DNA of 64,000 bases from a virus (IMGVR_UViG_3300001199_000006:1-64000), one strand, 5' to 3'; positions 18,150-53,166 are shown, numbered from the stretch's first letter. The notes: generated from the sequence alone by a model not told the origin. Translations and numbers: made by a program.

Positions 18150-18178
18150 TCATCGACGAAGAAGGATGCGGCACTTGA
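18150..18178 (-). promoter_or_regulatory. TCAAG-N16-GTCGATGA promoter
   Basis: 8 nt upstream of ATG 18141. Confidence 0.6.
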
Positions 18179-18248
18179 GCTATAGCGGGGCAAGACAGTT
18201 CCGGCACTTGGCAGGCGCGCCGTCGTGCTCGGATGTCAGTGGGCGGCA

Positions 18249-18422
18249 TCATCGAATCCGCTCGCGGAACTCGGTGACCGCGCGCCCCAGCGCGTAGCCC
18301 GCGCGCCCGACGACGTGCGGCGGGACCGTCGTCCAGGCCATCAGCACGTCCGTGCGACCTGTGCGGAACCACAGCGCGAAGGACTGCGACACGTTGACCG
18401 GGTTCAGGTACTTGCGGTTCAT
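18249..18422 (-). CDS. 57-aa hypothetical protein
   Basis: MNRKYLNPVNVSQSFALWFRTG...; ATGA overlap with the upstream gene. Confidence 0.5.
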   Translation of the reverse strand: MNRKYLNPVNVSQSFALWFRTGRTDVLMAWTTVPPHVVGRAGYALGRAVTEFRERIR

Positions 18423-18721
18423 GCCGCCGCCTCGATCGGGAACGCGCCGTTGTTGGTGCTGAACTCGCGGATCGGCCAGCCCTTCGCGTTGGTCACGCGC
18501 GGGACGACGATCTCACGTCCCTCCGCGTACGCGATCTCACCCGAGCCCGCGTACGTCAGGGCCTTGCCCAAGCGCACGCGCAGGCTTGACCCGTTGACGC
18601 GCACGACCTCGGCCTGCGCGACGTAGTGGCGGTGGCTGTGCGTCCACCGCGCCTCGACGATCTGCCCGGGCTGGAGCGCGGACTCGAACGTGATCTGTTC
18701 CAGGAACCAGTTGTCGTTCAT
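18419..18721 (-). CDS. Hypothetical protein (leaderless start)
   Basis: MNDNWFLEQITF...; ATG 7 nt after the promoter -10. Confidence 0.65.
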   Translation of the reverse strand: MNDNWFLEQITFESALQPGQIVEARWTHSHRHYVAQAEVVRVNGSSLRVRLGKALTYAGSGEIAYAEGREIVVPRVTNAKGWPIREFSTNNGAFPIEAAA

Positions 18722-18728
18722 GGGCGAG

Positions 18729-18757
18729 CTATCGGCTGACCTTGGCGTCGGGCTTGA
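18729..18757 (-). promoter_or_regulatory. TCAAG-N16-GCCGATAG promoter
   Basis: 7 nt upstream of ATG 18721. Confidence 0.75.
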
Positions 18758-18962
18758 GCCTTTCCGCCCACCAAAGTCCCATCGAGCCCCGCACCTCGTA
18801 CCACAGCCGCACGCGGTCGCCGACGGCCCCATCGCGGAGCCCGTCCCAGCCTGCACGAAGAAAATGCACGGTGCCGTCGTCGCACAGGACGCGCTGGAAG
18901 CCGTCGGCCCGTACCTCGGTGATCGCTCCGTCCTTCGTCATCGCGTCTTCCTCTTCATGCAC
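18729..18962 (-). CDS. Small OB/cold-shock-like hypothetical protein
   Basis: Beta-rich 77-aa ORF coupled to the methyltransferase gene. Confidence 0.5.
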   Translation of the reverse strand: MHEEEDAMTKDGAITEVRADGFQRVLCDDGTVHFLRAGWDGLRDGAVGDRVRLWYEVRGSMGLWWAERLKPDAKVSR

Positions 18963-20460
18963 TCTCTCCTGGTTTGCGCACCTTGACCATGATGGTCGAG
19001 ACCCCGGTCCCCGCCTCCTCGAACGCGCCGTCCGGGAGTTTCTCGATCTCGGCCTTGTGCTCGGCCAGGAACTTCGTGAGCACGCCGTAGCGGCCGTCCC
19101 GGCGCGTCGCGGCGCTCGCCGACATCACCGAGACCAGCACGCCGCCCGGCTTCACGAAGCGCCAGGCGCGGAGAACGTGCTCGACCTCCTGCGCGCCAGC
19201 GAACGGCGGGTTCATCACGACGGCGTCGTAGGACCCGAACTCCACGGGCAAGGCGGTGAAGAAGTCCAAGGGCAGGACCGTCACGCCGGGCTCGCCCTCT
19301 TGCTCGACACGCCGCGCCAGGTGTCCGAGCATCTCGATCCCGTGCGGATCGTTCTCGACCGCCGTGATGTCGCGGACCCGAGCGCGCAAGAGCGCGCGCA
19401 CGATCGCGCCCTCCCCGGCCGAGGGCTCCAGGACGCGCGAGTGTGTGTCGAGGTGGGCGGCTTCGACCAGCTTGTCCGCGACCTCGGCGGGTGTGTAGAA
19501 GGCTTGACGCGCCTGCTTCTCGGTCCGGGCCAATGCGAAGGTCGTCGGACGCCGTGCTTCCTGCGCCTGCTTCTCGGCCGCAGCCCCGCGCGGCGGCGGG
19601 AGCGCGCCCGGGTAGCGCCGCGCCATGATGAGGTTCATAGCATCGACGTGCTCGGGGTTGGTGATGCGGACGTGCGTCGTGCCGACTCGGAATATCTTGA
19701 TCCGCATCAGTGGCTCGGCGTCGGGGCCGAGCGGGCTCGGGACGTCGATCCACTTCCCGAACGGGATGGGCCCAAGCCATCGCAGCCCGACGCCGTGCCC
19801 GGACGGCGGGAGCCCCGCGAGCAGGCAGAGCACGCGTTCGAGGTCGTGCAGGCTCTCGTGACTGGACAGCGAAGCCGTGTCACCTTGGAGCGAGCGCGGG
19901 TGCAGGTAGAACGCGTGGTTCACGATGAGCTTCTCGCCGATGCGCGTGGGCTCGTTCGTGCGGTGTTCCCAGGAGAGCGAGCGATAGACGGCCTCGACGC
20001 AGCGCTCGAAGTATTCACCACGCTGGGCGTGTACGGCCGCGATCGTGGCCTCGATGTTCTCTCGCGTCAGCGCGGGCAAGTCGGCGGGCGCGTGCTTGGT
20101 GAACCGCGCGAAGCCCCTGGACCGGTGCAGTTGCTCGAACAGTTCACCGCGCGTCTTGTGGTCCATGATCGTGTCGATCTGCGTCAACACGTACAGGCGG
20201 AGCCAGAAGTGACGGTCGATCTCCTGCTCGATCGCCGTGGCGTTGCGCGGGTCCTGGATGTCGGCGGGGTTCCCGTCGGGGAAGTGAACGCTGACACGCG
20301 GCAGCTCGACTCCGAACACGCCGACCTGCTCCTTGGCTTGGTCGAGTAGTCGCACCGACTCCTTGAAGGCCGCTTGCGCCGCGTCGCGCGCGGCGAGCAG
20401 GGCCTCGATGCTGACGGCCGAGATGATGGACGCGGCTCCGGGTGCTTGTGCAGTGGTCAT
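18955..20460 (-). CDS. DUF4942-domain + class I SAM-dependent (N6-adenine-type) DNA methyltransferase
   Basis: N-terminal ...EYFERCVEAVYRSLSWEHRTNEPTRIGEKLIV...; C-terminal AFYTP, VLEPSAGEG, AVVMNPPF. Confidence 0.8.
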   Translation of the reverse strand: MTTAQAPGAASIISAVSIEALLAARDAAQAAFKESVRLLDQAKEQVGVFGVELPRVSVHFPDGNPADIQDPRNATAIEQEIDRHFWLRLYVLTQIDTIMDHKTRGELFEQLHRSRGFARFTKHAPADLPALTRENIEATIAAVHAQRGEYFERCVEAVYRSLSWEHRTNEPTRIGEKLIVNHAFYLHPRSLQGDTASLSSHESLHDLERVLCLLAGLPPSGHGVGLRWLGPIPFGKWIDVPSPLGPDAEPLMRIKIFRVGTTHVRITNPEHVDAMNLIMARRYPGALPPPRGAAAEKQAQEARRPTTFALARTEKQARQAFYTPAEVADKLVEAAHLDTHSRVLEPSAGEGAIVRALLRARVRDITAVENDPHGIEMLGHLARRVEQEGEPGVTVLPLDFFTALPVEFGSYDAVVMNPPFAGAQEVEHVLRAWRFVKPGGVLVSVMSASAATRRDGRYGVLTKFLAEHKAEIEKLPDGAFEEAGTGVSTIMVKVRKPGESA

Positions 20461-20657
20461 GCAGGCTCTTTCGGCTCCTCGGGCGCTTCGACTTGAGTCC
20501 GACGGTTCGGGCAGTCCAGGCTGGTGTGGACTCTGAACGAGTAGCCGAAGCAGTCGCAGTCGGCCTCGACCACGCGTCCGCCGTCGCTCCAGCGCGTGAC
20601 CTTGACGCGCACGCCGTTGCGCCGCGTCACCTCCACCGAGACGGGTTTGCGCTTCAC
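20457..20657 (-). CDS. Small hypothetical protein
   Basis: GTGA-coupled; VKRKPVSVEV...CDCFGYSFRVHTSLDC. Confidence 0.5.
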   Translation of the reverse strand: MKRKPVSVEVTRRNGVRVKVTRWSDGGRVVEADCDCFGYSFRVHTSLDCPNRRTQVEAPEEPKEPA

Positions 20658-21043
20658 CCGGATTCCTTCGGACGATGGCACACGCAAGCGCAACCTTGGC
20701 AGTGCGCGTGATCCGCGTCCAGACAACGTAGGCTCTTGCCGTACTTGTCGTCGCGTCGCTCCGCGTCCCGCGCCTCCTTCTCCGCTAACCGCCGTCGAGC
20801 GCGCTCCAGCTCGGCAGCCTGCTGCTCCAACGGCACGGGCGGGTCGCCCGCTCCGCCTGCCATCGCAAGTGCGTAGTACGCCGCGTGCGTCTTGTTGCAG
20901 AAGCGGCCCGCGTATCCGTACCCCATGAACACGGTGAGTTCAGGCGCGCGCCCACCGCTGTAACGCCGATAGAAGCTCGGTGTGAGCTTCTTCTTGCAGA
21001 AGCGACAGCGAGGGCGCGCCTGCATCAGAGCCTTGTGCTTCAC
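20654..21043 (-). CDS. Cys/His-rich hypothetical protein
   Basis: CRFCKKK...RFCNKTHA...CLDADHAHCQGCACVCH; GTGA-coupled. Confidence 0.55.
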   Translation of the reverse strand: MKHKALMQARPRCRFCKKKLTPSFYRRYSGGRAPELTVFMGYGYAGRFCNKTHAAYYALAMAGGAGDPPVPLEQQAAELERARRRLAEKEARDAERRDDKYGKSLRCLDADHAHCQGCACVCHRPKESG

Positions 21044-22302
21044 TTCGCCACCTCCGCGACCCGCGTCACCACGGTCGTCTTGAGGCCCTTGAACTCTTCG
21101 TGCTTCTTGACCGTCGCCTTGACCCGGCGCTCTTCGCCGATCTGCCACGCGCCCGGACCGTACGTGGGATCGTTCGACGCCCACCACACCAGCGTCGCGC
21201 CTTCGAGGTCGAACTCGCAGCGGTGCGTCGTACCGTAGTAGCCCTCGATCGCCCGGTGCGCGACCAGCTTGAGCGTCAGGATATCGCGCTTGCCAACCTC
21301 CCCGACGAACCGCGAGGACTTCGCCTTGCGCTCGCGCTCGCGCAGCCGCTCTTGCTCGCGGCGGTACGAGGCGATCAGGCTCACGGTGAGGCCGAGCTTG
21401 TCGTACCCGACCACTTCGCGGCTCGCGATCACCTTGAGGTTGAGCGGGTAGTCCTCGACGCCCTCGTACGCCCGCGCCCACTCGATCGCAGCGCGCGCTT
21501 CCGTCGCGAGCGCTTCGGTGAACCGCGTGCGGATCCGCGTACGCTCCTCGATCTCGCTGGGTTGGGGACGAGACGGCGGGAAGAGGAAGCGCACGACCTG
21601 ATCGGCCGTGGCCCCGGTGCCCTCTGCGTTCGCACGCGCCCGACTCGTCCAGCCGTACTCGTCGATGAAGGCCCCGGCGATCGTCACGATCTCGACCACG
21701 TCGATCGTCACGCGACCGCGCTGGAACCCCTCGTAGCCGAAGTCCTCTTCGTCCATCGAGAGCCCGCCGAGCGGGTCCCCGAGGAAGGTGACGAGCGCGA
21801 GCAGCGCTTCGGGCGAGAAGGCGCTGACCCCGAGGAAGTCGGCCAGGCAGTTCCGACCGACCTGCTGCACGCGGCCGTCCTCGGCCACCACGACGAACGT
21901 GTCCTTGCGCCCGCGCGCCGTGTGGCAGTGATCGCAGATCGTCCCGCGCTCGCGCTGCCCGGCGGGCAACTCGTGCCCCGGCACGTTCTTGACGATCGGC
22001 AGGCCCTCCGCGTGGTTCACCACGGCGACCAGGGTCCAGCCGCCCGGGAGCACCGGGATCGAGCCCTCGATCTCGACCTGCACGAACCGCGCCTTGGTCT
22101 CGATGACGCGCGGCGGAGTCGTGTCGAAGACCTGCCGACGATGCACGACCCGATCTTCCTCCGCCCCTCGGCGGTAGACGATCGGGTTCACGCCCAGCTT
22201 GCGGGCCTGCTTGTTCACGCGATCCAGTCGCTCGACCAGATCGGGCAGGCGGCTCTCCGGAGCCCAGCCCTGCACCTTGATGACTTGGTGGGTCACGCTC
22301 AT
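21040..22302 (-). CDS. Conserved phage protein with Zn motif and C-terminal OB-like domain
   Basis: CDHCHTARGRKDTFVV...QVGRNCLADFLG; C-terminal FVGEVGKRDILTLKLV. Confidence 0.75.
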   Translation of the reverse strand: MSVTHQVIKVQGWAPESRLPDLVERLDRVNKQARKLGVNPIVYRRGAEEDRVVHRRQVFDTTPPRVIETKARFVQVEIEGSIPVLPGGWTLVAVVNHAEGLPIVKNVPGHELPAGQRERGTICDHCHTARGRKDTFVVVAEDGRVQQVGRNCLADFLGVSAFSPEALLALVTFLGDPLGGLSMDEEDFGYEGFQRGRVTIDVVEIVTIAGAFIDEYGWTSRARANAEGTGATADQVVRFLFPPSRPQPSEIEERTRIRTRFTEALATEARAAIEWARAYEGVEDYPLNLKVIASREVVGYDKLGLTVSLIASYRREQERLRERERKAKSSRFVGEVGKRDILTLKLVAHRAIEGYYGTTHRCEFDLEGATLVWWASNDPTYGPGAWQIGEERRVKATVKKHEEFKGLKTTVVTRVAEVAK

Positions 22303-22309
22303 GCCCGCC

Positions 22310-22338
22310 TCTTCGGCAAGCGTACCGCCCGAGCTTGA
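22310..22338 (-). promoter_or_regulatory. TCAAG-N16-GCCGAAGA promoter
   Basis: 7 nt upstream of ATG 22302. Confidence 0.75.
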
Positions 22339-22361
22339 GCGAATCCGGGTGGAAAGCGTTT

Positions 22362-23624: not shown

Positions 23625-23627
23625 GGG

Positions 23628-24005: not shown

Positions 24006-24011
24006 AGAAGC

Positions 24012-25193: not shown

Positions 25194-25360
25194 CCGGCCC
25201 TCCGCTTCCCGTACACGGCCTCGATCTCGGCCATGATGCGCTTCCGCCGCTCTTCGAGCGTCTCGGCGCGCGTGACGAGTCCCTGACGCCGCGCCGCGTC
25301 CTTGAAGCGACGCGCGAGGTCGTGCTCCAGTTCCTTGCGGGTCTTGTAGTAGTGAGTCAT
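25190..25360 (-). CDS. Small helical protein
   Basis: MTHYYKTRKELE...; downstream of the promoter at 25383-25411. Confidence 0.55.
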   Translation of the reverse strand: MTHYYKTRKELEHDLARRFKDAARRQGLVTRAETLEERRKRIMAEIEAVYGKRRAG

Positions 25361-25977
25361 CGAGCCCTGCTCCTTCGCCCCTTCTTCGTCTCGGGCACGG
25401 CCCAACCTTGAGGGAACTCGGGGCATTCCTCACCGGTCGGCCTTGCCGGTGCGGCGGCGAGAACCGCGTCGGCCAAGTGCTTGTGCATCGTAGCGGGATC
25501 GAGCCCTTCGGCGAGGCAGCGACGCGTGTATTCGGCGGCGACGCGCGCCTGCCACGCCATCACGGCGTCGGCGCAGCGCTTGAGCCGCGCCGCTTCCTCG
25601 ATCGTGGCAGGGTGCTCGAAGTGCCGCTTCCAGCAGGCCGGGCAGTTGACCGTGTAGGACCCGCCTTGGGGGTCGCTGCGCGAGATCCAGGTGCGGCCGT
25701 GCTGGCAGCGCGGGTTCGAGCAGTCGTGGAACCACACGTACGTCTGGCGGTCCCTGCGCCAGCTCGGGGCGTGAGGCGGGTGTGACCAGACTTCGGCCCC
25801 GCTAGCTTCGCGCTTGCCCGTGTCGAACGCCGGGCCACCCTCGCAGCCGTAGCACAGACCGGTGAAGGTCCCGGCGTACCGCTCCGCCGGGTGCCCGCCG
25901 TCGGCGTCGAGCCCCTTGCCGCAGCCGCGACACTTGATCTCGCCGGGCGCGCCGAGCATGCCGTCGCGGTCCATCAC
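25357..25977 (-). CDS. Multi-zinc-finger hypothetical protein
   Basis: CRGC, CYGC, CSNPRC, CPAC pairs. Confidence 0.6.
   Translation of the reverse strand: MMDRDGMLGAPGEIKCRGCGKGLDADGGHPAERYAGTFTGLCYGCEGGPAFDTGKREASGAEVWSHPPHAPSWRRDRQTYVWFHDCSNPRCQHGRTWISRSDPQGGSYTVNCPACWKRHFEHPATIEEAARLKRCADAVMAWQARVAAEYTRRCLAEGLDPATMHKHLADAVLAAAPARPTGEECPEFPQGWAVPETKKGRRSRAR
25383..25411 (-). promoter_or_regulatory. TCAAG-N16-GACGAAGA promoter
   Basis: 22 nt upstream of ATG 25360, with AAGGAG in the leader. Confidence 0.55.
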
Positions 25978-26180
25978 GCGCCCTCCTTGAGCTTGGCGAT
26001 CGCGACGGCGACCGCGACCAGCTCACCCGGATATTCGCGCGGGTCGGCCCCGTTCACGAGTTCCTGCACCCCCGTGCAGACCTCGAAGGTCTCTTCGTCG
26101 ATGAGTATCTTGCCGCTCTCAACGACGGCGAGTCGCCAGTAGCCCGAGAGCGGGATCTGCTCCGCACGTACGAACAGCAT
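25974..26180 (-). CDS. Small hypothetical protein
   Basis: MLFVRAEQIP...; TGATG overlap. Confidence 0.55.
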   Translation of the reverse strand: MLFVRAEQIPLSGYWRLAVVESGKILIDEETFEVCTGVQELVNGADPREYPGELVAVAVAIAKLKEGA

Positions 26181-26767
26181 CACGCGGGCTCCGCAGGCTG
26201 GAAGTTGCCCGTGTCGATCACCTCGCCGAGGTGGCGGGGCTGGATCCGGTACGTCCGTCCATCGGGCCCGCGCCCGAGGATCTTCGGCTTGACCGCGACG
26301 ATCTGCACCTGCGCCGGGCTCACGGCGTTGCGCAGCTTGATCGTCACGCCAGGGCGCAGGTTGGCCAGCGCGCGCCGTTGCTCCGTCTGCTCCTGGTGCC
26401 ACTTGCGGACCCCGGCCCTCCACTCCTCGCACGCCGCCGGAGACGCGTCCAGGAAGCGCAGCGGGCACGAGTACGTGTACGGGTGCATGGACTCGTCCAT
26501 GTCCTTGTAGCCCTGCCCGCCGCCCTTGGACGAGAGCAGGAAGAGCGCGATGAACCGCTCCACCTTCACCGTGTCCCCGATCCCGCGCACGATGACCGTG
26601 CCGTTCTCGTCCCGATCCTCGAACAGCACCCACAGCGCGCTGCCGCTCCGTGCCTTGTCGATCGCGACCCGGGTGATCCGGTGGCCGCCGTGATCGAACT
26701 CGCGCGTCGCCGTCAGCTCGGCGATCAGCTCCGCGCGCGTCTGACCCCTCGTGTACGTCCAACCCAT
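26180..26767 (-). CDS. DUF6927-like protein
   Basis: MGWTY...YKDMDESMHPYTYSCPLRFLD...EEWRAGVR. Confidence 0.65.
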   Translation of the reverse strand: MGWTYTRGQTRAELIAELTATREFDHGGHRITRVAIDKARSGSALWVLFEDRDENGTVIVRGIGDTVKVERFIALFLLSSKGGGQGYKDMDESMHPYTYSCPLRFLDASPAACEEWRAGVRKWHQEQTEQRRALANLRPGVTIKLRNAVSPAQVQIVAVKPKILGRGPDGRTYRIQPRHLGEVIDTGNFQPAEPA

Positions 26768-26787: not shown

Positions 26788-26816
26788 CTATCGGCCGCGC
26801 CCCTCGCCCAGCTTGA
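26788..26816 (-). promoter_or_regulatory. TCAAG-N16-GCCGATAG promoter
   Basis: 20 nt upstream of ATG 26767, with a GGAGG SD in the leader. Confidence 0.7.
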
Positions 26817-29244: not shown

Positions 29245-30201
29245 TCGTCGGCGTCCTCGTTGTCACTGCACTCAAAGGCTGTGATGGCTTCGGTCAGCTC
29301 GGGGTGGATGTTGCGCGTGACCGCGTCCCAAAGCGCGCCGCGTCCCAGCGCCTCGCGCATGATCCGACCCGCCACCGCGTAGTTGCGCCACGCGCGCTCC
29401 GCATTCCGCTGCGCGTCCATCCGATCCGGGTCGGCCAGCAGATGCACCGTCATGGCGAGGACGTCGCTCAGGGCCACGACGAACTGCGCGCGCAGTGCAT
29501 CTTTCATCGCGGTCAGGGTGCGCTCGGCCACGTTCGCGCGGCTCTCGACACGCGACAGGTCCGCTGCCAACTCGATGCGGTGTTGCCGCTCAGATTTTTT
29601 CTTCGTCATAGAGGTTCCCCGTAGCAGTCGGTGTCCGTACGAATCGGCCACTCACGTCTCGACTTCTCACGCACCGCGCGCTCGCGCACTTCCATCAAGC
29701 GGAGCCGCCGCGCTTCTTCGCGCACGTCAGTCTCGAAGCGCTCGCTCGACCATGCCATCTTCGGGTTCCGATCGCGGATCGAGAGCATGTCCAGCACGAA
29801 CTGCGCCAGCGCGCCGCGGGCTTGACGCGTGGAGAGAGTCTGTCGTCTCTTCACTCGTCGTCCTCGTTGGTGCTACCCACGAAAGCCGGATCCGCCCTGT
29901 ACGCCACGTACCCGAGCCAGATCAGCTCGTTGATAATGGCCCAGAACTGCGGAGTGATCGCGAGTCCACTGACCCCGCCTTCGATGTGTCCTTCATTCCG
30001 CCAGGTGGAGAGGATCTCGCGCTCCGCTGCATTGATCTTGCACGGCACGATGACCTGGTCGTTCACCATGACGAACTGGATGTACGGCATCAGCCGCAGC
30101 TCCAGTTGGGTGATCTCGCGGCCCAGCAACTTCTTGGCCCGGGTCTTGATCGTCGGCGTGAGCACACCTCGTCCAGCCTTCATGCTTTCTCCCTTCTTCA
30201 C
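29241..30201 (-). CDS. Three coupled hypothetical genes (29241-29609, 29606-29854, 29851-30201)
   Basis: Overlapping start/stop codons; natural composition. Confidence 0.55.
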
Positions 30202-31721
30202 GCTTCCTCCTTGGCCGCGACGGTCTCGCGACGCAGCGCCGGGCGGAGCTTGGGTTCCTGCACGAGCAGGAGCGCGAGCTGCGCACCGAGCCGGGTCAAC
30301 GCCTCGTGGTAGCCGTGCGCCAGGTGATCGTCGCACCACTCGTGCCCCAGCTCATGCAGGAGCAGCTCGACGTGCTCGATGCGAAGACCTTCCGCCCCGT
30401 CCTCAAACCAGCGGTGCCCGAGCACTTGCAAGTTGAGCGTGAGGAAACCGCCGCGCCCGTACCACGCTGCGAAGCGGTTCGCGTTGTCGCGCACGATGCG
30501 GATCGAGAGTCCGGTGCGATCGCGCAGGAGGGCTTGGCCGATCAGCTTGAAGCTGACGCACACCACCTTTTGCGCGTCGGTCCATCTCTCGAACGGCACC
30601 TCGGTGTCGATGCCGTCCGGCGAGAACCTCGGGTGCTTGGTCGGCGTGACCTGTCCCGCCGCCTTCATCGCGCCGGTCTCGCGCACGCGCTCCCACGTCT
30701 CGGCCGGGAGTGCGCCGCCCGGGACCACGGTGTAGCCCTCGGACGCCGCGCGCTTGCTCGCCTCGGGATCCGACGGGTCGTAGGTGACGCGCCGCTTCCC
30801 GAACCGCTCGTCCAGCACGTTTGACACCGTGTCAGGCGCGGCCTCGGCCAGGGCCTCCGTCACCCACTCCTCGCGTGCCTCCTCGGCCGTGAGCAGCTTG
30901 TGCGCCGCGTCCAGGACGGCGACGCGCAGCCGCTTGAGGAACGCGGGCCGCACGTTCTCGCGGTCGAGCGTGAGCGGGATCTTCTGCTTGACGTTGATCC
31001 CGAACGGGCCGTCGATCGCGACGACCGGGATGCCCATCTCGTACAGCTTCGAGCCCGAGCCGTGCCGCCACACCTCGATCGCGGTCTCGCGCTCGACCAG
31101 GCGCAGGTTCCCCTCCTCGTCGGCCAGCTCGGTCTGGAGCTTAGCACGCAGCACGAGGTCGGGCGCGCCGTGCAGGTCGTTCAACACGTAGGTGACGCCG
31201 CCATCCCCACAGCGCGTCAGCACGGTGGTGCGGATGTGCGTGGGCGGGATCAGGTTGCGCAAATCCTCCGCGACTTCGTCCAGCTCGGCCCGTGTCATCG
31301 GCATGATCGCGGTCAGCACGGTTCCGCGCTGGGTCGCGGCCTTCGACGTCGTGCGCGAGCCGTCGGCGTGGAACATCACGGTGCCCGTGGTGCTCACGAT
31401 CTCGGCCTCGCGGCAGCGCGCGAGGAACAGCTTCTCACCCGCGTTGAATCGCCCACGCGTCTCGGCCAGGCCCTTCTTCCGGGACGCCGCGAAGAGCGTG
31501 TAGCTCTCGGCCAGGTTGGCGAAGCCGTTCGGTGCGTCGTCCATGACCGCGATCTCCACCCGGGGCTGCCCAGGGAGCGCAGTGATCGAAATCGCGACCT
31601 TGGTCACGCCCGGCTCGTCCCAGGCGTTCGAGATCAGCTCGGCGATCGCCCGGGCCTTCGTCTGACGACCGAGCACCTGGGCCAGGCCGTCCTTGTCCAC
31701 CTCGAACCATGCCTTCGTCAT
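30198..31721 (-). CDS. GHKL (Hsp90/MutL-like) ATPase fused to a C-terminal HExxH metallopeptidase-like domain
   Basis: AELISNAWD, VMDDAPNGF, GRFNAGEK, RGTVL; C-terminal LLLHELGHEWCDDHL. Confidence 0.75.
   Translation of the reverse strand: MTKAWFEVDKDGLAQVLGRQTKARAIAELISNAWDEPGVTKVAISITALPGQPRVEIAVMDDAPNGFANLAESYTLFAASRKKGLAETRGRFNAGEKLFLARCREAEIVSTTGTVMFHADGSRTTSKAATQRGTVLTAIMPMTRAELDEVAEDLRNLIPPTHIRTTVLTRCGDGGVTYVLNDLHGAPDLVLRAKLQTELADEEGNLRLVERETAIEVWRHGSGSKLYEMGIPVVAIDGPFGINVKQKIPLTLDRENVRPAFLKRLRVAVLDAAHKLLTAEEAREEWVTEALAEAAPDTVSNVLDERFGKRRVTYDPSDPEASKRAASEGYTVVPGGALPAETWERVRETGAMKAAGQVTPTKHPRFSPDGIDTEVPFERWTDAQKVVCVSFKLIGQALLRDRTGLSIRIVRDNANRFAAWYGRGGFLTLNLQVLGHRWFEDGAEGLRIEHVELLLHELGHEWCDDHLAHGYHEALTRLGAQLALLLVQEPKLRPALRRETVAAKEEA
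30822..30834. repeat. Palindrome TGACAC-C-GTGTCA, copy 5
   Basis: Inside the GHKL gene. Confidence 0.85.
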
Positions 31722-31975
31722 CGTTCCTCCTCCTGTAGTTGAACATGAAGCGCCCGGGCAAGCCGGACGTGCGCGCCGCGACCTCGTGCAGCCAACGCAG
31801 GCTCGGCCGCGAAGCCGCGCAATGCCTCGACCGTGGACGTGTCCGGCAACACCAACGCGAACGACGTGCCGGTGCTGTCGAACAGCATGCGCACCGTGCG
31901 TTGATCGGGCAGCACGATGTCGATCTCGTGCGGCTCGTCTCGGCCGTGCGTCGGAAGCACGATCGAACGTCTCAC
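31718..31975 (-). CDS. Small hypothetical protein
   Basis: GTGA-coupled. Confidence 0.45.
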   Translation of the reverse strand: MRRSIVLPTHGRDEPHEIDIVLPDQRTVRMLFDSTGTSFALVLPDTSTVEALRGFAAEPALAARGRGAHVRLARALHVQLQEEER

Positions 31976-32232
31976 CCCTGCACCTTGACGCACTTGAACG
32001 CGACGCTCGCCATCTTGTGCAGCGGCAGCGCGACGAACTTGGCGCGGTTCGTCTCGTTCAGCGCGTCGTACACCGTGACGATCGCCGAGGCCGTGAACAG
32101 GTCCACTGCGTAGCCGTCGATCTTGGCGAACTGGCACTGCCGCACGATCTCGCGACACGCCTCGACCTTGTCGGTGGGCGTCTCGGTGTGGTGCTGCTCG
32201 ATGCCACTGTTGACGCGGGTGATGGTCTTCAT
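31972..32232 (-). CDS. Conserved small phage protein (VDLFTASAIVxVYDxLN motif)
   Basis: Motif recalled from T4-like phage hypothetical proteins; leaderless start. Confidence 0.7.
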   Translation of the reverse strand: MKTITRVNSGIEQHHTETPTDKVEACREIVRQCQFAKIDGYAVDLFTASAIVTVYDALNETNRAKFVALPLHKMASVAFKCVKVQG

Positions 32233-32239: not shown

Positions 32240-32268
32240 CTATCGAACGGGCCGAGGTCCGGACTTGA
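32240..32268 (-). promoter_or_regulatory. TCAAG-N16-TTCGATAG promoter
   Basis: 7 nt upstream of ATG 32232. Confidence 0.7.
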
Positions 32269-32737
32269 ACCATTCCGGCGGAAGTGAGAGGCGCACCGGC
32301 GAGCCCGCAGGCCAATCAGCGGCAGAGCACGTCAGCGTGTCAATGTCCAGAGGATCGCCGAAGCGTGCAACGCGGACCGCACCCTCGCGCACCACGGTCC
32401 CGGCGTGCATCAGCGCGAAACGTGTCGCGCGCCCCGTGGCCTTCACGTCGCCTTCGACCCGATACCCATCACCGACGCGTCCGCTGAACAAGTCCCGACC
32501 CTTCTCGTCGAGCACGGTCACGGTGTAGCCGTGCCAGGGCTCGGGCGAGCGCTTCATCCAGGCGTCCACGTCGAGGATCTTCCGACGCTCGCGGCGCGCG
32601 CGATGTAGTCGCCACGTCTCCCACGTCCACAACCCAGCGAAGCACGCCGCGATCAGGAACGCGACCCAGCACCCGAACGAAAACGCGCCGACAATCCAGC
32701 GCAGCCCTTCCATCAAGAAGTCGGTGACCATACGCAC
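32240..32737 (-). CDS. Membrane-anchored hypothetical protein
   Basis: N-terminal hydrophobic helix WIVGAFSFGCWVAFLIAACFAGLW. Confidence 0.6.
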   Translation of the reverse strand: MRMVTDFLMEGLRWIVGAFSFGCWVAFLIAACFAGLWTWETWRLHRARRERRKILDVDAWMKRSPEPWHGYTVTVLDEKGRDLFSGRVGDGYRVEGDVKATGRATRFALMHAGTVVREGAVRVARFGDPLDIDTLTCSAADWPAGSPVRLSLPPEWFKSGPRPVR

Positions 32738-32790: not shown

Positions 32791-33618
32791 CTAGTTGCGG
32801 CTCGGGTCCACGTCCGTGTCCACGCTCGGAGCGAGCTGGAAGCCGCGCGAGTCCGCGACGATGCGCGGGAAGCCTTTGAGGCCGCGCTCGCCGATGCGCG
32901 GGCTGCGCCAGCCCTTCGCGACCTCGGTCACGGCGTTGTAGAGCGACCAGGCGTTACGCGACGCGAAGGCCGAGTGGTGCGGGTGCTCGTCGTCCTGGTA
33001 CGCACGGTAGGTCTCGTCGATCTTGCCGAGCTGGTTCCAGGCGACCACGCCGTTGCGTCCGGCGAGCATCAGGAGGTGATCGGCATCGCTGTTCGTCAGC
33101 TCCGTCTCCTCCATGAACTCGACGAGGCGGTGCATCTGCCCGATCTGGTCCTGCCACTTCTGGATCCCGGTCTCGACCTTGACCTCAAGCTCGTCCACGT
33201 TGCCCGACGTGTGCTTCACGCCGAACACGAAGTCACCGACGATCGCGCCGTTCTCGCAAATGAACACGCGCGAGCCCGAGACGCCGAGGAGCTGGAAGCG
33301 CTGCACGTTCGAGCTGCGGAAGCCGAGGATCGGAGCCATGTCGATGCGGTCGCCGATCTTGATCCCCTGCACCTGGATCGAGCCGAAGATGTCGTGCCGG
33401 TCCTCGGACAGCGCGAAGGACTCCTTGGCGACGCCGTAGCCGTTCTTCGCGAGAGCCGCGTGGATGTCTTCGATCAGGTCCGCGTGGTGCATGGGCTTCC
33501 AGCGCGTCCCGATCTCGTCGTTCTTCCGGATGGCGCGCAGCTCATCGAGCGTGGGCACGCGGTACGTTTTGCGCAGTTCCGGCAGGGTGATGGTGGGCTT
33601 TCCGTGCGTGTAGAGCAT
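32791..33618 (-). CDS. DUF932/DUF945-like protein
   Basis: RWKPMHHADLI...RVFICENG...NAWSLYNAVTEVAK. Confidence 0.7.
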   Translation of the reverse strand: MLYTHGKPTITLPELRKTYRVPTLDELRAIRKNDEIGTRWKPMHHADLIEDIHAALAKNGYGVAKESFALSEDRHDIFGSIQVQGIKIGDRIDMAPILGFRSSNVQRFQLLGVSGSRVFICENGAIVGDFVFGVKHTSGNVDELEVKVETGIQKWQDQIGQMHRLVEFMEETELTNSDADHLLMLAGRNGVVAWNQLGKIDETYRAYQDDEHPHHSAFASRNAWSLYNAVTEVAKGWRSPRIGERGLKGFPRIVADSRGFQLAPSVDTDVDPSRN

Positions 33619-33666: not shown

Positions 33667-33695
33667 TCATCGACCAGCCCGACACCTGGAGTTTA
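33667..33695 (-). promoter_or_regulatory. TAAAC-N16-GTCGATGA promoter variant
   Basis: Same spacing and -10 as the TCAAG family; 48 nt upstream of ATG 33618. Confidence 0.5.
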
Positions 33696-45294: not shown

Positions 45295-45297
45295 GTC

Positions 45298-47466: not shown

Positions 47467-47489
47467 CTAGTCGCTACTTCGACGCAGGA

Positions 47490-47936: not shown

Positions 47937-47964
47937 TGAAGTTCCTTCGGTACAGGTGGTGACG

Positions 47965-50046: not shown

Positions 50047-50090
50047 AGGAACGGAAGTCTACCGGTCCCGCGCGCCCGCATCTACAGGGC

Positions 50091-50393
50091 TCAGGTCACG
50101 AAGACATTGGGGATCGTGGCCTGGAGCACGCCCTGGAGCCAACCGGTGCCGAGCATCGTCACGGCCCCGCCCACGTACACGGGCTTGCCCTCGATCAGCA
50201 CCTTCGTGCTGGTGAGCGTGCCGGAGATGATCGGGCCGCCGCCCGTGTTGGCCTGGCCAACCAGCATGACGCTGCGCCCGCCGATGAAGGTCTTGACCGA
50301 GCCCGAGGTCATGGGGAACGAGGCGTAGGCGGGAGGCGTGCTCGGGTACACGTACGGGCCGCCGACATCACCCTGCACGACGGGGATCGGCAT
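50091..50393 (-). CDS. PAAR-like spike tip protein
   Basis: 100 aa; MPIPVVQGD...GSVKTFIGGRSV...KVLIEGKPVYVGG...VFV. Confidence 0.7.
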   Translation of the reverse strand: MPIPVVQGDVGGPYVYPSTPPAYASFPMTSGSVKTFIGGRSVMLVGQANTGGGPIISGTLTSTKVLIEGKPVYVGGAVTMLGTGWLQGVLQATIPNVFVT

Positions 50394-51052
50394 CAGAACA
50401 GCTCCCCTCGCAGCGCCTTGAACTTGCCCTCGCCCTGCGCGAGCTTCTGGATCAGGGCCGCGAGGTTCGTGTCGAGGATACCCGGGACACCGCCGACGAA
50501 GGAGAAACCGTCAGCGAGCTGTGCGAATCGCTGGTACGGGCCTTCGAGGAACTCCTCGTTCCCGCACACCGATTGCACGGTGGCCGCGATCACGAGGGCC
50601 TCGGCGAAGGACTCAGGTGTGAACGCGATCCGCCGTGACTCACGCTCGTACCTGCGCGCTTCCTTGACCAGCTTCGCGTTCGGACTGTTGTCGAGTGCTA
50701 ACTCGTAGTTGCGTCGCGCGTCATCCACGTCACCGGCCGTCAAGCTCTTGATCTTCTGGAGCTGGGTATTGGGGTCAAGCGCCGTGAGTGAACCGAGATC
50801 GTCAAGGCCGAGCGCCAACGGCGTCAACGGGCAAGCGACGTACGTGAGCAGCGCGACAAAGTCGAGAGGCACGGGGCTCGGGATCGAATCGACGGCTGCG
50901 TCAACGTCTTCGACGGCGATCCCGGCTGTCGCGCCGAAGGCGTCGTTGAAAAAGCCAGTCATCGAGATGATCGCGGTGAGCTTGTCCAGCTCGATCTGCA
51001 CGCGGCGACGCAGCACCGACGTGACTGCACTAGGACACGCGCCACACGCCAT
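50393..51052 (-). CDS. Hypothetical protein (baseplate region)
   Basis: 219 aa; TGATG-coupled to the PAAR-like gene. Confidence 0.65.
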   Translation of the reverse strand: MACGACPSAVTSVLRRRVQIELDKLTAIISMTGFFNDAFGATAGIAVEDVDAAVDSIPSPVPLDFVALLTYVACPLTPLALGLDDLGSLTALDPNTQLQKIKSLTAGDVDDARRNYELALDNSPNAKLVKEARRYERESRRIAFTPESFAEALVIAATVQSVCGNEEFLEGPYQRFAQLADGFSFVGGVPGILDTNLAALIQKLAQGEGKFKALRGELF

Positions 51053-51055
51053 CGC

Positions 51056-51262
51056 TCACACCCGCTCGACGACGAAGCCGTCCAAGACGAAACGCGCGAA
51101 GCGCACGGAGCCACCGTTCAACTGCGCCGTATACGGCTCGACCGGAAGCTCGATGGGTAGCGACGCTGGAAGCGGGGAGGGCCTGAAACGCGCCGACGCG
51201 AACGCCGTGACCAACAGCCCGAACAGAGAGCGGCGCGTGAGCCCTCGATGAGGGTTTGACAT
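51056..51262 (-). CDS. Small protein with twin-arginine-like N-terminus
   Basis: MSNPHRGLTRRSLFGLLVTAFASA. Confidence 0.45.
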   Translation of the reverse strand: MSNPHRGLTRRSLFGLLVTAFASARFRPSPLPASLPIELPVEPYTAQLNGGSVRFARFVLDGFVVERV

Positions 51263-51270
51263 GGTGTCAA
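51256..51270. repeat. Palindrome variant TTGACAT-G-GTGTCAA, copy 8
   Basis: One mismatch; overlaps ATG 51262. Confidence 0.7.
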
Positions 51271-51285
51271 GCATACGCCGGAGCG

Positions 51286-51732
51286 TCAGCTACGCAAGAG
51301 GCGGCGGCGCTCGCGCTGATAACGCCGATGCCGTGCGCGGTACTTCGCGGTTCGACGCGCCCGGCGCTCGCGCACTGCCTTGCACCAGCGGCACTGCCTC
51401 TCACGGCGACGCCCGGGGCGTTGGCGGTAGAGCGGGCGAATCCACGGATGCCCGGCCGCGCACGCCGGGAGCGGCTTCGAGCGCGTCGCCTCGACTCGCC
51501 AATGCGCGGGGTTGACGCAAGCGTGCCGTCCACAGACGTTCTCGATCCGCCGCGCCCCGAGCGGTTCGATCAGCGCCTCCCAGAAGACACGGTGCGCCAC
51601 CTGTCGCCGACCCTGTACCTGTACCCGGACGTAGCCGGACTCGTTGCAAGGCCGCATCGGCAAGGTCCAACAGCCGTCAGCGTGCTCTCGCACACGGGCG
51701 CGCACCGCCTCGAAGGTCTGCGCCGCAGGCAT
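51286..51732 (-). CDS. HNH-endonuclease-like protein, probably degenerate
   Basis: CW...GY...AHRVFWE...RIENVCGRHACVNPAHW...CAAGH...RQCRWC; the usual DH-L-C is ENVC. Confidence 0.7.
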   Translation of the reverse strand: MPAAQTFEAVRARVREHADGCWTLPMRPCNESGYVRVQVQGRRQVAHRVFWEALIEPLGARRIENVCGRHACVNPAHWRVEATRSKPLPACAAGHPWIRPLYRQRPGRRRERQCRWCKAVRERRARRTAKYRARHRRYQRERRRLLRS

Positions 51733-52058
51733 CAGCGCTTGACGCCGCGTCGCATGAAATCGCGCGCGCTGTCCTCAGTCGCGTTGTATTGGCGCACACC
51801 CTTGCGCGCCAGGCGGACGAGACGAGGGATCTCCTCGGCGTCGTACAGCTCAGCGTCGCCCATGACGATCCAACCGGCCTTGAGGTTGAGGGCACGCGCG
51901 TGCCGGTATCGCGCCCGCCCAACACCGCGCATGGCGTGAAACCGCCACGCCACCTGGCCGTCGCTCCACAGCGCTACGGTCTTGCCGTCCGCCGTCTGAC
52001 GACGGGCGACTTCGTGATCCGCGTGAGCGCCGCACGAGCAAGTGGGAGGATGGAGCAT
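51732..52058 (-). CDS. Hypothetical protein
   Basis: MLHPPTCSCG...; TGATG-coupled. Confidence 0.55.
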   Translation of the reverse strand: MLHPPTCSCGAHADHEVARRQTADGKTVALWSDGQVAWRFHAMRGVGRARYRHARALNLKAGWIVMGDAELYDAEEIPRLVRLARKGVRQYNATEDSARDFMRRGVKR

Positions 52059-52066
52059 GTTCAGGT

Positions 52067-52702
52067 TCAGGTGGTCTTCGGGGCAGGCGAGGTGTGCTTG
52101 CGGAAGAGGCCGTTCTTCGTGACCGACACGACGAGCTGGCAGCCCGGGCACTCCGCATAGCGCCGGCACTGACCCGAGAACTTCCCGCTGTTCGGGCAGA
52201 GCGTTGCGGCCTCGGCGGCTTCGCGAGCTTCACGCAGCGCCTTGGCGCGGAGGAAATCGGGGTGCGTCTGAACCTCTGGGAAGCACACGGCGCAGGCCGC
52301 GTCTCCGTGAGCCTGCACCATCGCGCTCTCGTCACAGTCGGCCAGGTTCACGAGCCATCCGAACTGCGTGTTCCAGTGACAGGTCGAACAGCTCCGTTCG
52401 CGATGTACGTGGCCGCCGGGCACCAGGTAGTAACGCCTCCACCCGCCGCGTCGCGCGAACTCGTTCTCGAACGGGGTCATCTCGTCCTGGATCGCCTTGC
52501 GCTCGGCACGGACCTTGGCCCACGCGGCCTCGATCTCTTCCAAGCTCTGCCCATACAGCTTCCGCCCGTCGCGCGCGTCCATCACACGCTGCTCGTACTG
52601 GCTCTCACGCATGCGCGTCCGGAAGAAGCGCTCGTAGATCGCGGCGAGCTGGGTGTCGATCTCACACGGGGTCTGCTCGGTCAAGGGCTTGGTCTCGCTC
52701 AT
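52067..52702 (-). CDS. Conserved phage Zn-binding protein
   Basis: GGWRRYYLVPGGHVHRERSCSTC...ACAVCFP; leaderless start. Confidence 0.7.
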   Translation of the reverse strand: MSETKPLTEQTPCEIDTQLAAIYERFFRTRMRESQYEQRVMDARDGRKLYGQSLEEIEAAWAKVRAERKAIQDEMTPFENEFARRGGWRRYYLVPGGHVHRERSCSTCHWNTQFGWLVNLADCDESAMVQAHGDAACAVCFPEVQTHPDFLRAKALREAREAAEAATLCPNSGKFSGQCRRYAECPGCQLVVSVTKNGLFRKHTSPAPKTT

Positions 52703-52709
52703 GCCCGCC

Positions 52710-52738
52710 TCTTCGACCACGGTACCACCGGGTCTTGA
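52710..52738 (-). promoter_or_regulatory. TCAAG-N16-GTCGAAGA promoter (leftward)
   Basis: 7 nt upstream of ATG 52702. Confidence 0.75.
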
Positions 52739-52788
52739 GGGAAAGCGTTTCCGACCGAAGAAAGTGCTCGCGCGGTCCGGTTTTCGCC

Positions 52789-52817
52789 TCAAGGTCGCGG
52801 TACGCCCTGGCCGAAGA
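52789..52817 (+). promoter_or_regulatory. TCAAG-N16-GCCGAAGA promoter (rightward)
   Basis: 7 nt upstream of ATG 52825. Confidence 0.75.
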
Positions 52818-52824
52818 AGTGGGC

Positions 52825-53151
52825 ATGAGCAACGCCAAGTTCACCGAGACGTCCACTCCGGCGGTCATGCGCTTCGCCTACGACAGCGGCGCGCAGTGGA
52901 AGGTTAGCCCGCACGGTCCCGACGACCCGGACCGAGACGCTGTCTGGTGTGACTCACGCACCGAAGCGGATCGTGTCGCCGCGTGCGAACGATACCGGAA
53001 CGCGGTCGCAGAGCTGACCAAGGCTCAAGAACGCCTCCGCACCGCCGTGCAGCACATCGACACGTACGAATCGAGGTACGCGGTCGAGCGTTTGAAGCGC
53101 GAGGTCGAGGCCGCGCGCGAAGCACTGCCGGAAGACCTCAAGACGCGTTAG
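52825..53151 (+). CDS. Hypothetical protein
   Basis: MSNAKFTETS...; leaderless start. Confidence 0.65.
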   Translation: MSNAKFTETSTPAVMRFAYDSGAQWKVSPHGPDDPDRDAVWCDSRTEADRVAACERYRNAVAELTKAQERLRTAVQHIDTYESRYAVERLKREVEAAREALPEDLKTR

Positions 53152-53166
53152 GCCCAGAGCCGACAC
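53138..53166 (+). promoter_or_regulatory. TCAAG-N16-GCCGACAC promoter
   Basis: 15 nt upstream of ATG 53182, with a GGAGGA SD. Confidence 0.6.

What the first reader, a model, noticed from the sequence alone, without database searches (positions are those of the whole stretch)
18150..53166. Ten copies of a sigma28-like promoter (TCAAG-N16-GCCGATAG type), mostly driving leaderless mRNAs
Seen: the same 5 + 16 + 8 architecture at 18150-18178, 18729-18757, 22310-22338, 25383-25411, 26788-26816, 32240-32268, 33667-33695 (TAAAC variant) and 52710-52738 on the minus strand, and at 52789-52817 and 53138-53166 on the plus strand. The spacer is exactly 16 nt in all ten and CGA in the -10 is invariant. 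ATG follows 7 nt later in five cases and 8 nt later in one, with no SD; the other four have longer leaders (15-48 nt), three with a clear SD. All sit in front of accessory/early-type genes. Known: the sigma28 (FliA/SigD/WhiG) -10 is GCCGATAA and the -35 is TAAA (TCAAG in Pseudomonas), but with a spacer about 2 nt shorter than here. Inference: a regulon read by a host flagellar/alternative sigma or a phage-encoded sigma located outside the window. The 8 fixed bases alone would occur about twice by chance in 128 kb of both strands, so the evidence is the fixed distance to start codons. I did not scan exhaustively.
Basis: partly seen in the sequence, partly recalled or inferred. Interest (0 to 1): 0.8.

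Follow-up and report, generated by a model that had tools for sequence, protein, structure and literature searches.

The report
Sigma-28-like leaderless phage promoter set
An uncultured high-GC phage and its relatives place the same two-box promoter, which looks like a flagellar (sigma-28) promoter with a stretched spacer, 7-8 bases before the start codons of many accessory genes, so those messages probably begin at the AUG itself.

Summary
All ten sites are where stated, and I found an eleventh at 20468-20496(-). TCAAG-N16-nnCGAnnn followed by ATG 7-8 nt later occurs 7 times in the 76.5-kb contig. It occurs 0 times at spacers 12-20 other than 16, and 0 times at N16 in 1.57 Mb of unrelated phage DNA.

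Two related metagenomic phages, L059 and L060, carry 5 and 10 copies. At orthologous sites the two boxes are 98% and 88% conserved, while the equal-length spacer is 43% conserved.

The boxes match sigma-28/FliA/WhiG promoters, but the spacer is 2 nt longer than in E. coli and 1 nt longer than in Streptomyces WhiG promoters.

No sigma gene was found in the contig, which is about 58% complete. An unrelated siphovirus contig (G485) uses the same promoter class. The only protein it shares with this phage is a Myb/SANT-repeat DNA-binding protein.

I conclude these are real promoters that probably give leaderless mRNAs, read by a sigma-28-family factor or by a phage-specified factor. Host, reading factor and transcription start sites are all untested. 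This is a new variant of a known kind. Other notes from this scan report GYCGA boxes before leaderless starts in other phages.

The parts
18150..18178 (-). Promoter copy TCAAG-N16-GTCGATGA. The ATG at 18141 lies 8 nt after the box. It heads the operon 17647-18141, 17438-17650 and the GGDEF gene 16855-17430.
   Evidence: Weight-matrix score 19.1. Ortholog is L059:13924, a TAAAG variant.
18729..18757 (-). Promoter copy TCAAG-N16-GCCGATAG. The ATG at 18721 lies 7 nt after the box (gene 18419-18721). The TAG of the box is the stop codon of ORF 18729-18962.
   Evidence: Weight-matrix score 25.3. Ortholog is L059:13173.
20468..20496 (-). The ATG at 20460 lies 7 nt after the box (DUF4942/methyltransferase gene 18955-20460).
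   Evidence: Weight-matrix score 15.8. Orthologs are L059:11460 and L060:11236.
22310..22338 (-). Promoter copy TCAAG-N16-GCCGAAGA. The ATG at 22302 lies 7 nt after the box (420-aa phrog_2319 protein, 21040-22302).
   Evidence: Best weight-matrix score, 33.0. The N-terminus MSVTHQVIK is conserved in homologs. Orthologs are L059:9965 and L060:9929.
25383..25411 (-). Promoter copy TCAAG-N16-GACGAAGA with a 22-nt leader carrying the SD GAAGGAG. The ATG is at 25360. The site lies inside the 3' end of gene 25357-25977.
   Evidence: Weight-matrix score 22.7.
26788..26816 (-). Promoter copy TCAAG-N16-GCCGATAG with a 20-nt leader carrying the SD GGAGGT. The ATG is at 26767 (gene 26180-26767). The TAG of the box is the stop codon of the upstream ORF.
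   Evidence: Weight-matrix score 27.0. Orthologs are L059:4660 and L060:2571, with the same leader and SD.
32240..32268 (-). Promoter copy TCAAG-N16-TTCGATAG. The ATG at 32232 lies 7 nt after the box (gene 31972-32232). The TAG of the box is the stop codon of ORF 32240-32737.
   Evidence: Weight-matrix score 30.4.
33667..33695 (-). Marginal copy TAAAC-N16-GTCGATGA with a 48-nt leader and an SD. It sits at the head of the 33.6-kb-to-1 minus-strand block (DUF932 gene 32791-33618).
   Evidence: Weight-matrix score only 9.1.
52710..52738 (-). Promoter copy TCAAG-N16-GTCGAAGA. The ATG at 52702 lies 7 nt after the box (gene 52067-52702). It is one of a back-to-back divergent pair.
   Evidence: Weight-matrix score 20.8.
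52789..52817 (+). Promoter copy TCAAG-N16-GCCGAAGA. The ATG at 52825 lies 7 nt after the box (gene 52825-53151). It is the divergent partner of 52710.
   Evidence: Weight-matrix score 29.1.
53138..53166 (+). Marginal copy TCAAG-N16-GCCGACAC with a leader carrying the SD GGAGGA (gene 53182/53188-53487).
   Evidence: Weight-matrix score only 8.2.
31960..31988 (-). Possible twelfth copy, TCAAG-N16-TTCGATCG, upstream of the GHKL-ATPase gene 30198-31721. Weak.
   Evidence: A TCAAG-N16-GTCGATAC site also precedes the GHKL ortholog in the distant relative G488. It did not reach the weight-matrix threshold.
15225..15896 (-). Gene for a DNA-binding protein of four Myb/SANT-like repeats. It is the only protein family shared with the unrelated phage G485 that uses the same promoter class, which makes it a candidate phage-encoded factor.
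15906..15934 (-). Ordinary housekeeping-type promoter TTGTCC-N17-TATCCT, 9 nt before the ATG of the Myb-repeat gene. It shows that a second, conventional promoter class is present.
   Evidence: G485 has the analogous TTGCGA-N17-TATGGT 9 nt before its first early ATG.
16855..17430 (-). Stand-alone GGDEF diguanylate cyclase, the last gene of the unit that starts at 18150-18178. The arrangement is kept in L060.
   Evidence: Pfam GGDEF at 2e-42. L060:17376-17921 is GGDEF at 1e-42 and lies behind the site at L060:16926.

Best explanation
The sites are genuine promoters of one class, kept across a clade of uncultured high-GC phages with T4-like tails.

Consensus and geometry: the consensus is C-TCAAG-N16-G-Y-C-G-A-W-R-A. 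In about three quarters of the copies the start codon, always ATG, follows 7-8 nt later. Transcription should therefore start on or next to the A of AUG and give leaderless mRNAs. The remaining copies have 15-60 nt leaders with a canonical GGAGG ribosome-binding site.

Reading factor: both boxes, including their natural variants (TAAAG, TAAAC, GCCGATAG, GCCGAAGA), are those of sigma-28/FliA/WhiG promoters. The most likely reader is RNA polymerase carrying a sigma-28-family sigma whose preferred spacer is 1-2 bp longer than in characterised members. That sigma could belong to the unknown host or be encoded in the missing ~40% of the phage genome.

What is shown and what is inferred: the motif, its statistics, its orientation, its conservation and its footprint are shown. 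The transcription start, the leaderless translation and the identity of the sigma are inferred.

My odds: promoter about 0.9, leaderless about 0.75, sigma-28-family reader about 0.5.
For: Specificity of the composite motif: it appears only at N16, with 7, 3 and 9 copies in the contig, L059 and L060. It gives 0 at N16 in 1.57 Mb of unrelated phage loci.

Independent training: a matrix built from L059 and L060 alone recovers nine window sites as its nine best hits, all co-oriented with their genes.

Footprint at eight orthologous pairs:
- -35 box 98% identical
- -10 box 88%
- spacer 43%, with its length kept
- upstream 25 nt 53%

Start codons: the N-termini of the downstream proteins are conserved in homologs.

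Ribosome-binding sites: every copy with a leader has GGAG or GGAGG. Of the 19 copies without a leader, 11 have no SD-like 4-mer (sequences).

Match to sigma-28 promoters: E. coli FliA sites read TAAAG/TCAAG/TAAAC/TCAAC-N14-GCCGATAA (PMC4203485). Streptomyces WhiG sites have one base more of spacer (PMC7005675). The consensuses reported for Actinomycetota are T(A/C)AA-N16-GCCGATAA and CTCA-N16-17-GCCGAACT (10.64898/2026.01.14.699351). The C before TCAAG is present in 21 of 25 sites.

No competing promoter signal: no sigma-70-type promoter is predicted in 15-35 kb, with 0 found against 1.2 expected.

Shared trans-factor: the same class occurs in the unrelated siphovirus contig G485, which shows that a common factor exists.
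Against: Spacer: in the TCAA...GCCGA register it is N17. No characterised sigma-28-family member uses this; the known values are N15 and N16.

No sigma gene in the DNA held: none in the 76.5-kb contig or in G485.

Host unknown: none of 401 sampled Pseudomonadota genomes or 81 Gemmatimonadota genomes shows an excess of the N16 geometry. Those screens had low sensitivity, and they include the unpublished genomes G061 and G467. Other phyla could not be screened.

Possible ribosome-binding site: 8 of the 19 'leaderless' copies contain GAGG, formed by GAAGA+GG, 5 nt before the ATG. That could act as a weak SD on read-through RNA.

No RNA 5'-end data exist.
Confidence: 0.5

Rival explanations
1. The promoter class is specified by a phage-encoded factor rather than by a host sigma-28. 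Two candidates exist. One is the Myb/SANT-repeat DNA-binding protein (window 15225-15896), acting as an activator or sigma-appropriating factor in the manner of T4 MotA. The other is an unrecognised phage sigma encoded in the missing part of the genome. On this view the likeness to sigma-28 sites is partial or convergent.
For: Two independent searches of IMG/VR converge on the same contigs. One searched by the exact promoter pattern (re-scored). The other searched by the Myb-repeat protein. Both land on G485 and G486.

G485 shares no other protein with this contig. It has three sites, two of them 7 nt before ATG.

Among about 190 fetched loci, homologs of the protein occur only in loci that carry the promoter class.

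In both lineages the gene sits at or near the head of the early region, behind an ordinary TTGnnn-N17-TAnnnT promoter. That fits an early-to-middle switch.

The spacer fits no known sigma-28.
Against: The protein is built of Myb/SANT-like repeats, not sigma-like domains. G485's version has only two repeats in 124 aa.

An activator would still need a sigma for the -10 box. That box lacks the T at -7 that housekeeping sigmas require.

A shared host would equally explain the co-occurrence.

G488 encodes the protein but has fewer sites.
Confidence: 0.3
2. The sites are read by another host alternative sigma, for example an ECF-type sigma, whose specificity happens to resemble sigma-28.
For: From my own knowledge, unchecked here: CGA/CGT-type -10 boxes and 16-18 bp spacers are typical of ECF sigmas. 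High-GC environmental bacteria carry dozens of them.
Against: The near-universal ECF -35 core AAC is replaced by an invariant AAG (24 of 25 G). The extended GYCGAWRA box and the T(C/A)AA variants fit sigma-28 far better.
Confidence: 0.1
3. The motif is not a promoter. It could instead be a recombination or cassette boundary, a protein-binding site unrelated to initiation, or a translation signal.
For: Three near-identical copies (22310, 52710, 52789) share extra bases, GGTAC in the spacer and GGCGGGCATGAGC after the box. That looks like duplicated cassettes. Some copies contain GAGG near the ATG.
Against: Several features are the signature of a sigma-dependent promoter:
- a bipartite layout with a spacer of strict length but free sequence
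- strict co-orientation with the downstream genes
- a fixed 7-8 nt distance to ATG
- canonical SDs only where a leader exists

 The two boxes cannot pair with each other in RNA.
Confidence: 0.05

Closest known systems
Sigma-28 (FliA/SigD) promoters of flagellar regulons: TAAA-N15-GCCGATAA, e.g. the E. coli sites in PMC4203485
   Same: Both half-sites match, including the invariant CGA, the leading GC/GY and the -35 variants TAAAG, TCAAG, TAAAC and TCAAC.
   Different: The spacer is 2 bp longer (N17 in the TAAA/TCAA register). The last three bases are WRA rather than TAA. The sites lie in a phage in front of accessory genes. The ATG is fused 7-8 nt downstream.
Actinobacterial WhiG/FliA-family promoters: Streptomyces whiH/whiI with N16 (PMC7005675); reported consensuses T(A/C)AA-N16-GCCGATAA and CTCA-N16-17-GCCGAACT (10.64898/2026.01.14.699351)
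   Same: The spacer is longer than in the enteric type. The CTCA-type -35 matches, since C precedes TCAAG in 21 of 25 sites, and the -10 is of the GCCGAA type. Those regulons often include c-di-GMP enzymes (PMC8325347), and here a GGDEF gene lies behind one of the sites.
   Different: The spacer is still 1 bp longer than the longest reported. The host is not known to be an actinobacterium. G485's nearest cultured relatives by large terminase infect Proteobacteria.
Early-promoter arrays and PeSL (promoter-early stem-loop) cassettes of T4-type phages
   Same: Many copies of one promoter are scattered through a plastic region of small accessory genes, each driving a short unit. Some copies look duplicated along with their first codons.
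   Different: The promoter is not of the housekeeping type. No associated stem-loop was seen. The messages are predicted to be leaderless.
T4 middle promoters (MotA box plus AsiA sigma appropriation) and phage-encoded sigmas (SPO1 gp28, phiEco32 gp36)
   Same: These are possible analogies if the Myb-repeat protein or an unseen phage sigma redirects the host polymerase to a phage-specific promoter class.
   Different: No MotA, AsiA or sigma homolog was found. The -10 box is not of the housekeeping type.

Membership tests
Sigma-28 (FliA/WhiG) dependent promoter | -35 element T(A/C)AA | tested here: met
   In 25 sites from three phages: T 25/25, C 23 and A 2, A 25/25, A 25/25.
Sigma-28 (FliA/WhiG) dependent promoter | -10 element GCCGATAA with an invariant central CGA | tested here: met
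   CGA 25/25, first G 22/25, second base C or T 24/25, then W, R and A/G.
Sigma-28 (FliA/WhiG) dependent promoter | Spacer of 15 bp (flagellar type) or 16 bp (WhiG type) between T(A/C)AA and GCCGA | tested here: not met
   The spacer is 17 bp in all 25 tabulated sites. One further site, L060:15799, has 16 bp. Reference spacings come from PMC4203485, PMC7005675 and 10.64898/2026.01.14.699351.
Sigma-28 (FliA/WhiG) dependent promoter | Transcription depends on a sigma-28-family sigma present in the cell or the phage | not testable with these tools
   The host is unknown. No Sigma70_r2 or Sigma70_r4_2 domain is in the contig, and no Sigma70_r2 domain is in G485. The contig is about 58% complete.
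Leaderless mRNA | The transcript 5' end lies at or within a few nt of the AUG | not testable with these tools
   Inferred only from the fixed 7-8 nt between the -10 box and the ATG.
Leaderless mRNA | No Shine-Dalgarno sequence; the start codon is AUG | tested here: inconclusive
   Of 19 copies, 11 have no SD-like 4-mer and 8 have GAGG 5 nt upstream, formed by the box itself. The all-ATG result is partly circular, because ATG was in the search pattern. However, no TCAAG-N16-nnCGA hit listed for the contig, L059 or L060 has a GTG at +7/8.
Housekeeping (sigma-70/sigma-A) promoter | TTGACA-N17-TATAAT with A at -11 and T at -7 | tested here: not met
   The -35 box matches 2 of 6 positions. There is no T at -7. 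The consensus scan finds 0 sites in 15-35 kb.
ECF-sigma promoter | -35 core AAC and a -10 beginning CGT | tested here: not met
   The sites have AAG (G in 24 of 25) and CGA (25 of 25). The defining features are from my own knowledge.
T4-type PeSL cassette | An early promoter coupled to a conserved stem-loop flanking small ORFs | not tested
   The only strong terminator-like hairpin in 15-35 kb (16007-15971) is not next to a site. No dedicated search was made.

The most novel reading that the evidence does not exclude
One or both of two readings remain open.

(a) Several unrelated phages share a phage-borne Myb/SANT-repeat protein that acts as a new kind of promoter-specificity factor. It would redirect the host polymerase to sigma-28-like promoters with a stretched spacer.

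(b) The phage runs its early programme on the host's FliA/WhiG sigma, which is active only in motile or differentiating cells. It then uses its own diguanylate cyclase, itself behind one of these promoters, to raise c-di-GMP and switch that sigma off, giving a built-in timer.
Probability: 0.15. Interest if true: 0.75.

Novelty: new variant of a known kind. Interest (0 to 1): 0.5.

Why it matters
Promoters of uncultured phages are almost never defined. Here one class is delimited precisely enough to test: the consensus, the spacing, 25 or more sites in three related phages, and further sites in an unrelated one.

If a sigma-28-family factor reads it, this would be a phage whose accessory or early genes depend on a motility or development sigma. 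The known spacing range of that family would also be extended.

If the shared Myb-repeat protein is the specificity factor, it would be a new phage transcription regulator.

The fusion of promoter to start codon adds to growing evidence, including other notes of this scan, that leaderless expression is common in environmental phages. That matters for gene calling, because start codons can be fixed from the promoter.

Tried and rejected
**Searches for relatives**
- Close relatives among cultured phages: none by DNA. DNA polymerase and tail sheath find only remote hits.
- IMG/VR searches with single proteins found nothing.
- 57 distant homolog loci lack the motif.
- An exact-pattern scan of IMG/VR gave 51 single hits that looked like chance. 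A later re-scoring showed that G485 and G486 are real.
The records behind L059 and L060 are not held by the genome search. The 142-kb and 105-kb relatives could therefore not be searched for a sigma.

**Host identification failed**
- The sulfatase, the SpoVG-like protein and the GGDEF protein have no close cellular homologs. The lipoprotein found no related cluster.
- There are no tRNAs.
- Codon usage is not diagnostic.
- The genome-contig scan found only mis-binned or remote phage-like contigs.

**Genome screens for the N16 geometry**
- 81 Gemmatimonadota and 401 Pseudomonadota genomes gave no enriched genome. These samples include the unpublished genomes G061 and G467, which enter only these negative screens.
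- The apparent excess in G284 was not in front of ORFs.
- Other phyla could not be reached.

**Other checks**
- The Pseudomonas phage Ab19, a cultured relative of G485 by large terminase, lacks the motif.
- Readings as an archaeal, a T4-late or a sigma-54 promoter were considered and dropped on sequence grounds.
- The TTGACAC-S-GTGTCAA palindrome does not travel with the promoter class.
- The fold of the Myb-repeat protein is not sigma-like.

Full report
**What the DNA is.** The window is bases 1-64000 of a 76,560-bp IMG/VR virus contig. The contig is linear and CheckV estimates it at 58% complete. GC content is 66%, and nearly all genes lie on the minus strand.
- The tail genes are T4-like: sheath, tube and baseplate.
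- The replication module holds a gp32-like SSB, a DnaB helicase, other helicases and a PolA fused to a UDG domain.
- Accessory genes include a sulfatase, a GGDEF cyclase, a SpoVG homolog and a Tad1/Acb2-like protein.
- No cultured phage is close.

**Checking the observation.** An exhaustive scan adds an eleventh at 20468-20496(-), 7 nt before the ATG of the DUF4942/methyltransferase gene.

The bare pattern TCAAG-N16-nnCGA occurs 12 times, against 3-11 at other spacers. Coding periodicity makes N12, N15 and N18 common and N13, N16 and N19 rare, so N16 is about 3-fold enriched.

The composite with ATG 7-8 nt after the box is the decisive statistic:

| Sequence set | Copies at N16 | Copies at other spacers (12-20) |
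|---|---|---|
| This contig | 7 | 0 |
| L059 | 3 | 0 |
| L060 | 9 | 1 (at N15) |
| 1.57 Mb of unrelated phage loci | 0 | 26 in all (2-8 per spacer) |

**Relatives.** Homologs of the 420-aa protein behind site 22310 led to two metagenomic relatives:
- L059, from Hainich groundwater, 74% protein identity.
- L060, from a 142-kb contig, 61% protein identity.

Both carry the same motif on the coding strand, 5 and 10 times in about 20 kb each. A weight matrix built from those sites alone returns nine window sites as its nine best hits, at 15.8-33 bits, with the next hit at 14.0. The TAAAC site (33667) and the GCCGACAC site (53138) are marginal.

At eight orthologous pairs the conservation is as follows:
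- -35 box: 98% identical
- -10 box: 88%
- spacer: 43%, with its length kept
- upstream 25 nt: 53%

The N-termini of the downstream proteins are conserved. This is the footprint expected of a sigma-dependent promoter.

**Anatomy.** The consensus from 25 sites is C(21/25)-TCAAG-N16-G-Y-C-G-A-W-R-A. There is an A/T-rich patch 4-6 nt before the box and a weak yCCGG after it.
- Copies with a leader all have GGAG or GGAGG.
- Of the 19 copies without a leader, 11 have no SD-like 4-mer. The other 8 have GAGG, formed by GAAGA+GG.
- In three window sites the TAG of GATAG is the stop codon of the upstream gene.
- No housekeeping-type promoter is predicted in 15-35 kb.
- Two conventional promoters exist elsewhere, at 9501(-) and 15934(-). 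The second lies 9 nt before an ATG.

**What reads it.** Both boxes are those of sigma-28 promoters.

| Promoter set | Spacer between T(A/C)AA and GCCGA | Source |
|---|---|---|
| E. coli FliA sites (TAAAG/TCAAG/TAAAC/TCAAC-N14-GCCGATAA) | N15 | PMC4203485, |
| Streptomyces WhiG sites | N16 | PMC7005675, |
| Actinomycetota reported consensus T(A/C)AA-N16-GCCGATAA | N16 | 10.64898/2026.01.14.699351, |
| Actinomycetota reported consensus CTCA-N16-17-GCCGAACT | N16-17, counted from CTCA | 10.64898/2026.01.14.699351, |
| This phage clade | N17 | |

The half-site tests are therefore met and the spacing test is not. The family's spacing does vary by lineage, which keeps a sigma-28-family reader plausible.

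No Sigma70_r2 or Sigma70_r4_2 domain occurs in any frame of the contig.

WhiG regulons often include c-di-GMP enzymes (PMC8325347). Here a GGDEF gene ends the unit that starts at 18150, and L060 keeps the same arrangement.

**A second lineage.** Re-scoring the loci found by the exact promoter pattern showed that G485 carries three sites. Two of them lie 7 nt before the ATG of small early genes.
- G485 is 42.8 kb, about 72% complete, with 64% GC.
- It is a siphovirus-type contig. Its large terminase is 57% identical to those of Roseobacter phage RDJL3 and Pseudomonas Ab18-like phages.
- It has no Sigma70_r2 domain.
- It shares only one protein with this contig: a DNA-binding protein of Myb/SANT-like repeats, window 15225-15896.

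A search of IMG/VR with that protein family returns only G485, G486 and G488. G488 is a distant relative of this contig and also carries the motif.

The promoter class and this protein therefore travel together. Either they share a host, or the protein is the specificity factor. In both lineages the gene sits behind a conventional promoter.

**Host.** The host is unresolved. Screens of 81 Gemmatimonadota and 401 Pseudomonadota genomes showed no lineage enriched for the N16 geometry. These samples include the unpublished genomes G061 and G467, and only these negative screens rest on them.

**Verdict.** These are real promoters (about 0.9) that probably give leaderless mRNAs (about 0.75). The main rival is a phage-specified factor (about 0.3). 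This is a new variant of a known kind.

Other notes from this scan describe actinobacterial CTCA-N17-GCCGA regulons and other phages with GYCGA boxes about 10 nt before leaderless starts. I did not check those notes.

Noticed in passing
window 9513, 11589, 16743, 22464, 30822, 40674, 45864, 51257; contig 67871, 75774: Ten copies of the palindrome TTGACAC-S-GTGTCAA, mostly just after stop codons or in intergenic DNA. There is one copy in L059 and none in L060, G485 or the G488 parts. It therefore does not travel with the TCAAG promoter class.
   Followed up: partly
minus strand at window 40643, 42829, 50062, 50085; contig 66868, 71381: GTAGAY, often as CCCTGTAGAT, occurs only 10 times on the coding strand, and 8 of those are intergenic, mostly in front of virion genes. 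It occurs 37 times on the other strand. This is a candidate late-promoter box. G485 has CCCTGTAGGG just before one TCAAG site.
   Followed up: partly
window 15225-15896 (-): A protein of four Myb/SANT-like repeats (AF2 pLDDT 83; SANT domain 2cqq at E=0.003). Its orthologs are in L059, L060 and G488, and a two-repeat version is in the unrelated phage G485. The L060 ortholog gives a weak hit to the Pfam GcrA family.
   Followed up: partly
window 15906-15934 (-) and 9474-9501 (-): Conventional promoters TTGTCC-N17-TATCCT (9 nt before an ATG) and TTGACA-N16-TATCCT. G485 has TTGCGA-N17-TATGGT 9 nt before its first early ATG. Near-leaderless starts are therefore not confined to the TCAAG class.
   Followed up: partly
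window 15971-16007 (-): A strong intrinsic-terminator-like hairpin (15 pairs, 13 of them GC, followed by TTCTTTT) between gene 16026-16655 and the Myb-repeat gene.
   Followed up: no
window 16855-17430 (-); L060:17376-17921: A stand-alone GGDEF diguanylate cyclase is conserved in the clade, in each case the last gene of a unit headed by a TCAAG promoter.
   Followed up: partly
window 14650-15003 (-), 1-759 (-), 1653-4793 (-), 12041-12577 (-): A phage SpoVG homolog, a gp32-like SSB, a DNA polymerase A fused to a UDG-superfamily domain and a 3'-5' exonuclease, and a protein with an Acb2/Tad1 hairpin domain.
   Followed up: no
L196:826, L197:4401(+), L197:3116(-) (contig G488): In the distant relative G488, three leadered TCAAG sites are each followed about 24-27 nt after the -10 box by the same element, GGAYCCAGACG. 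This is a possible conserved leader or operator.
   Followed up: no
L181 (129.5-kb contig binned in an Ignavibacteriaceae MAG): A more distant relative (47% identity for the 420-aa protein, GC 58%) lacks the TCAAG class. Instead it shows TAnnnT-type boxes 5-7 nt before several start codons. The habit of leaderless starts may be older than the promoter class.
   Followed up: no
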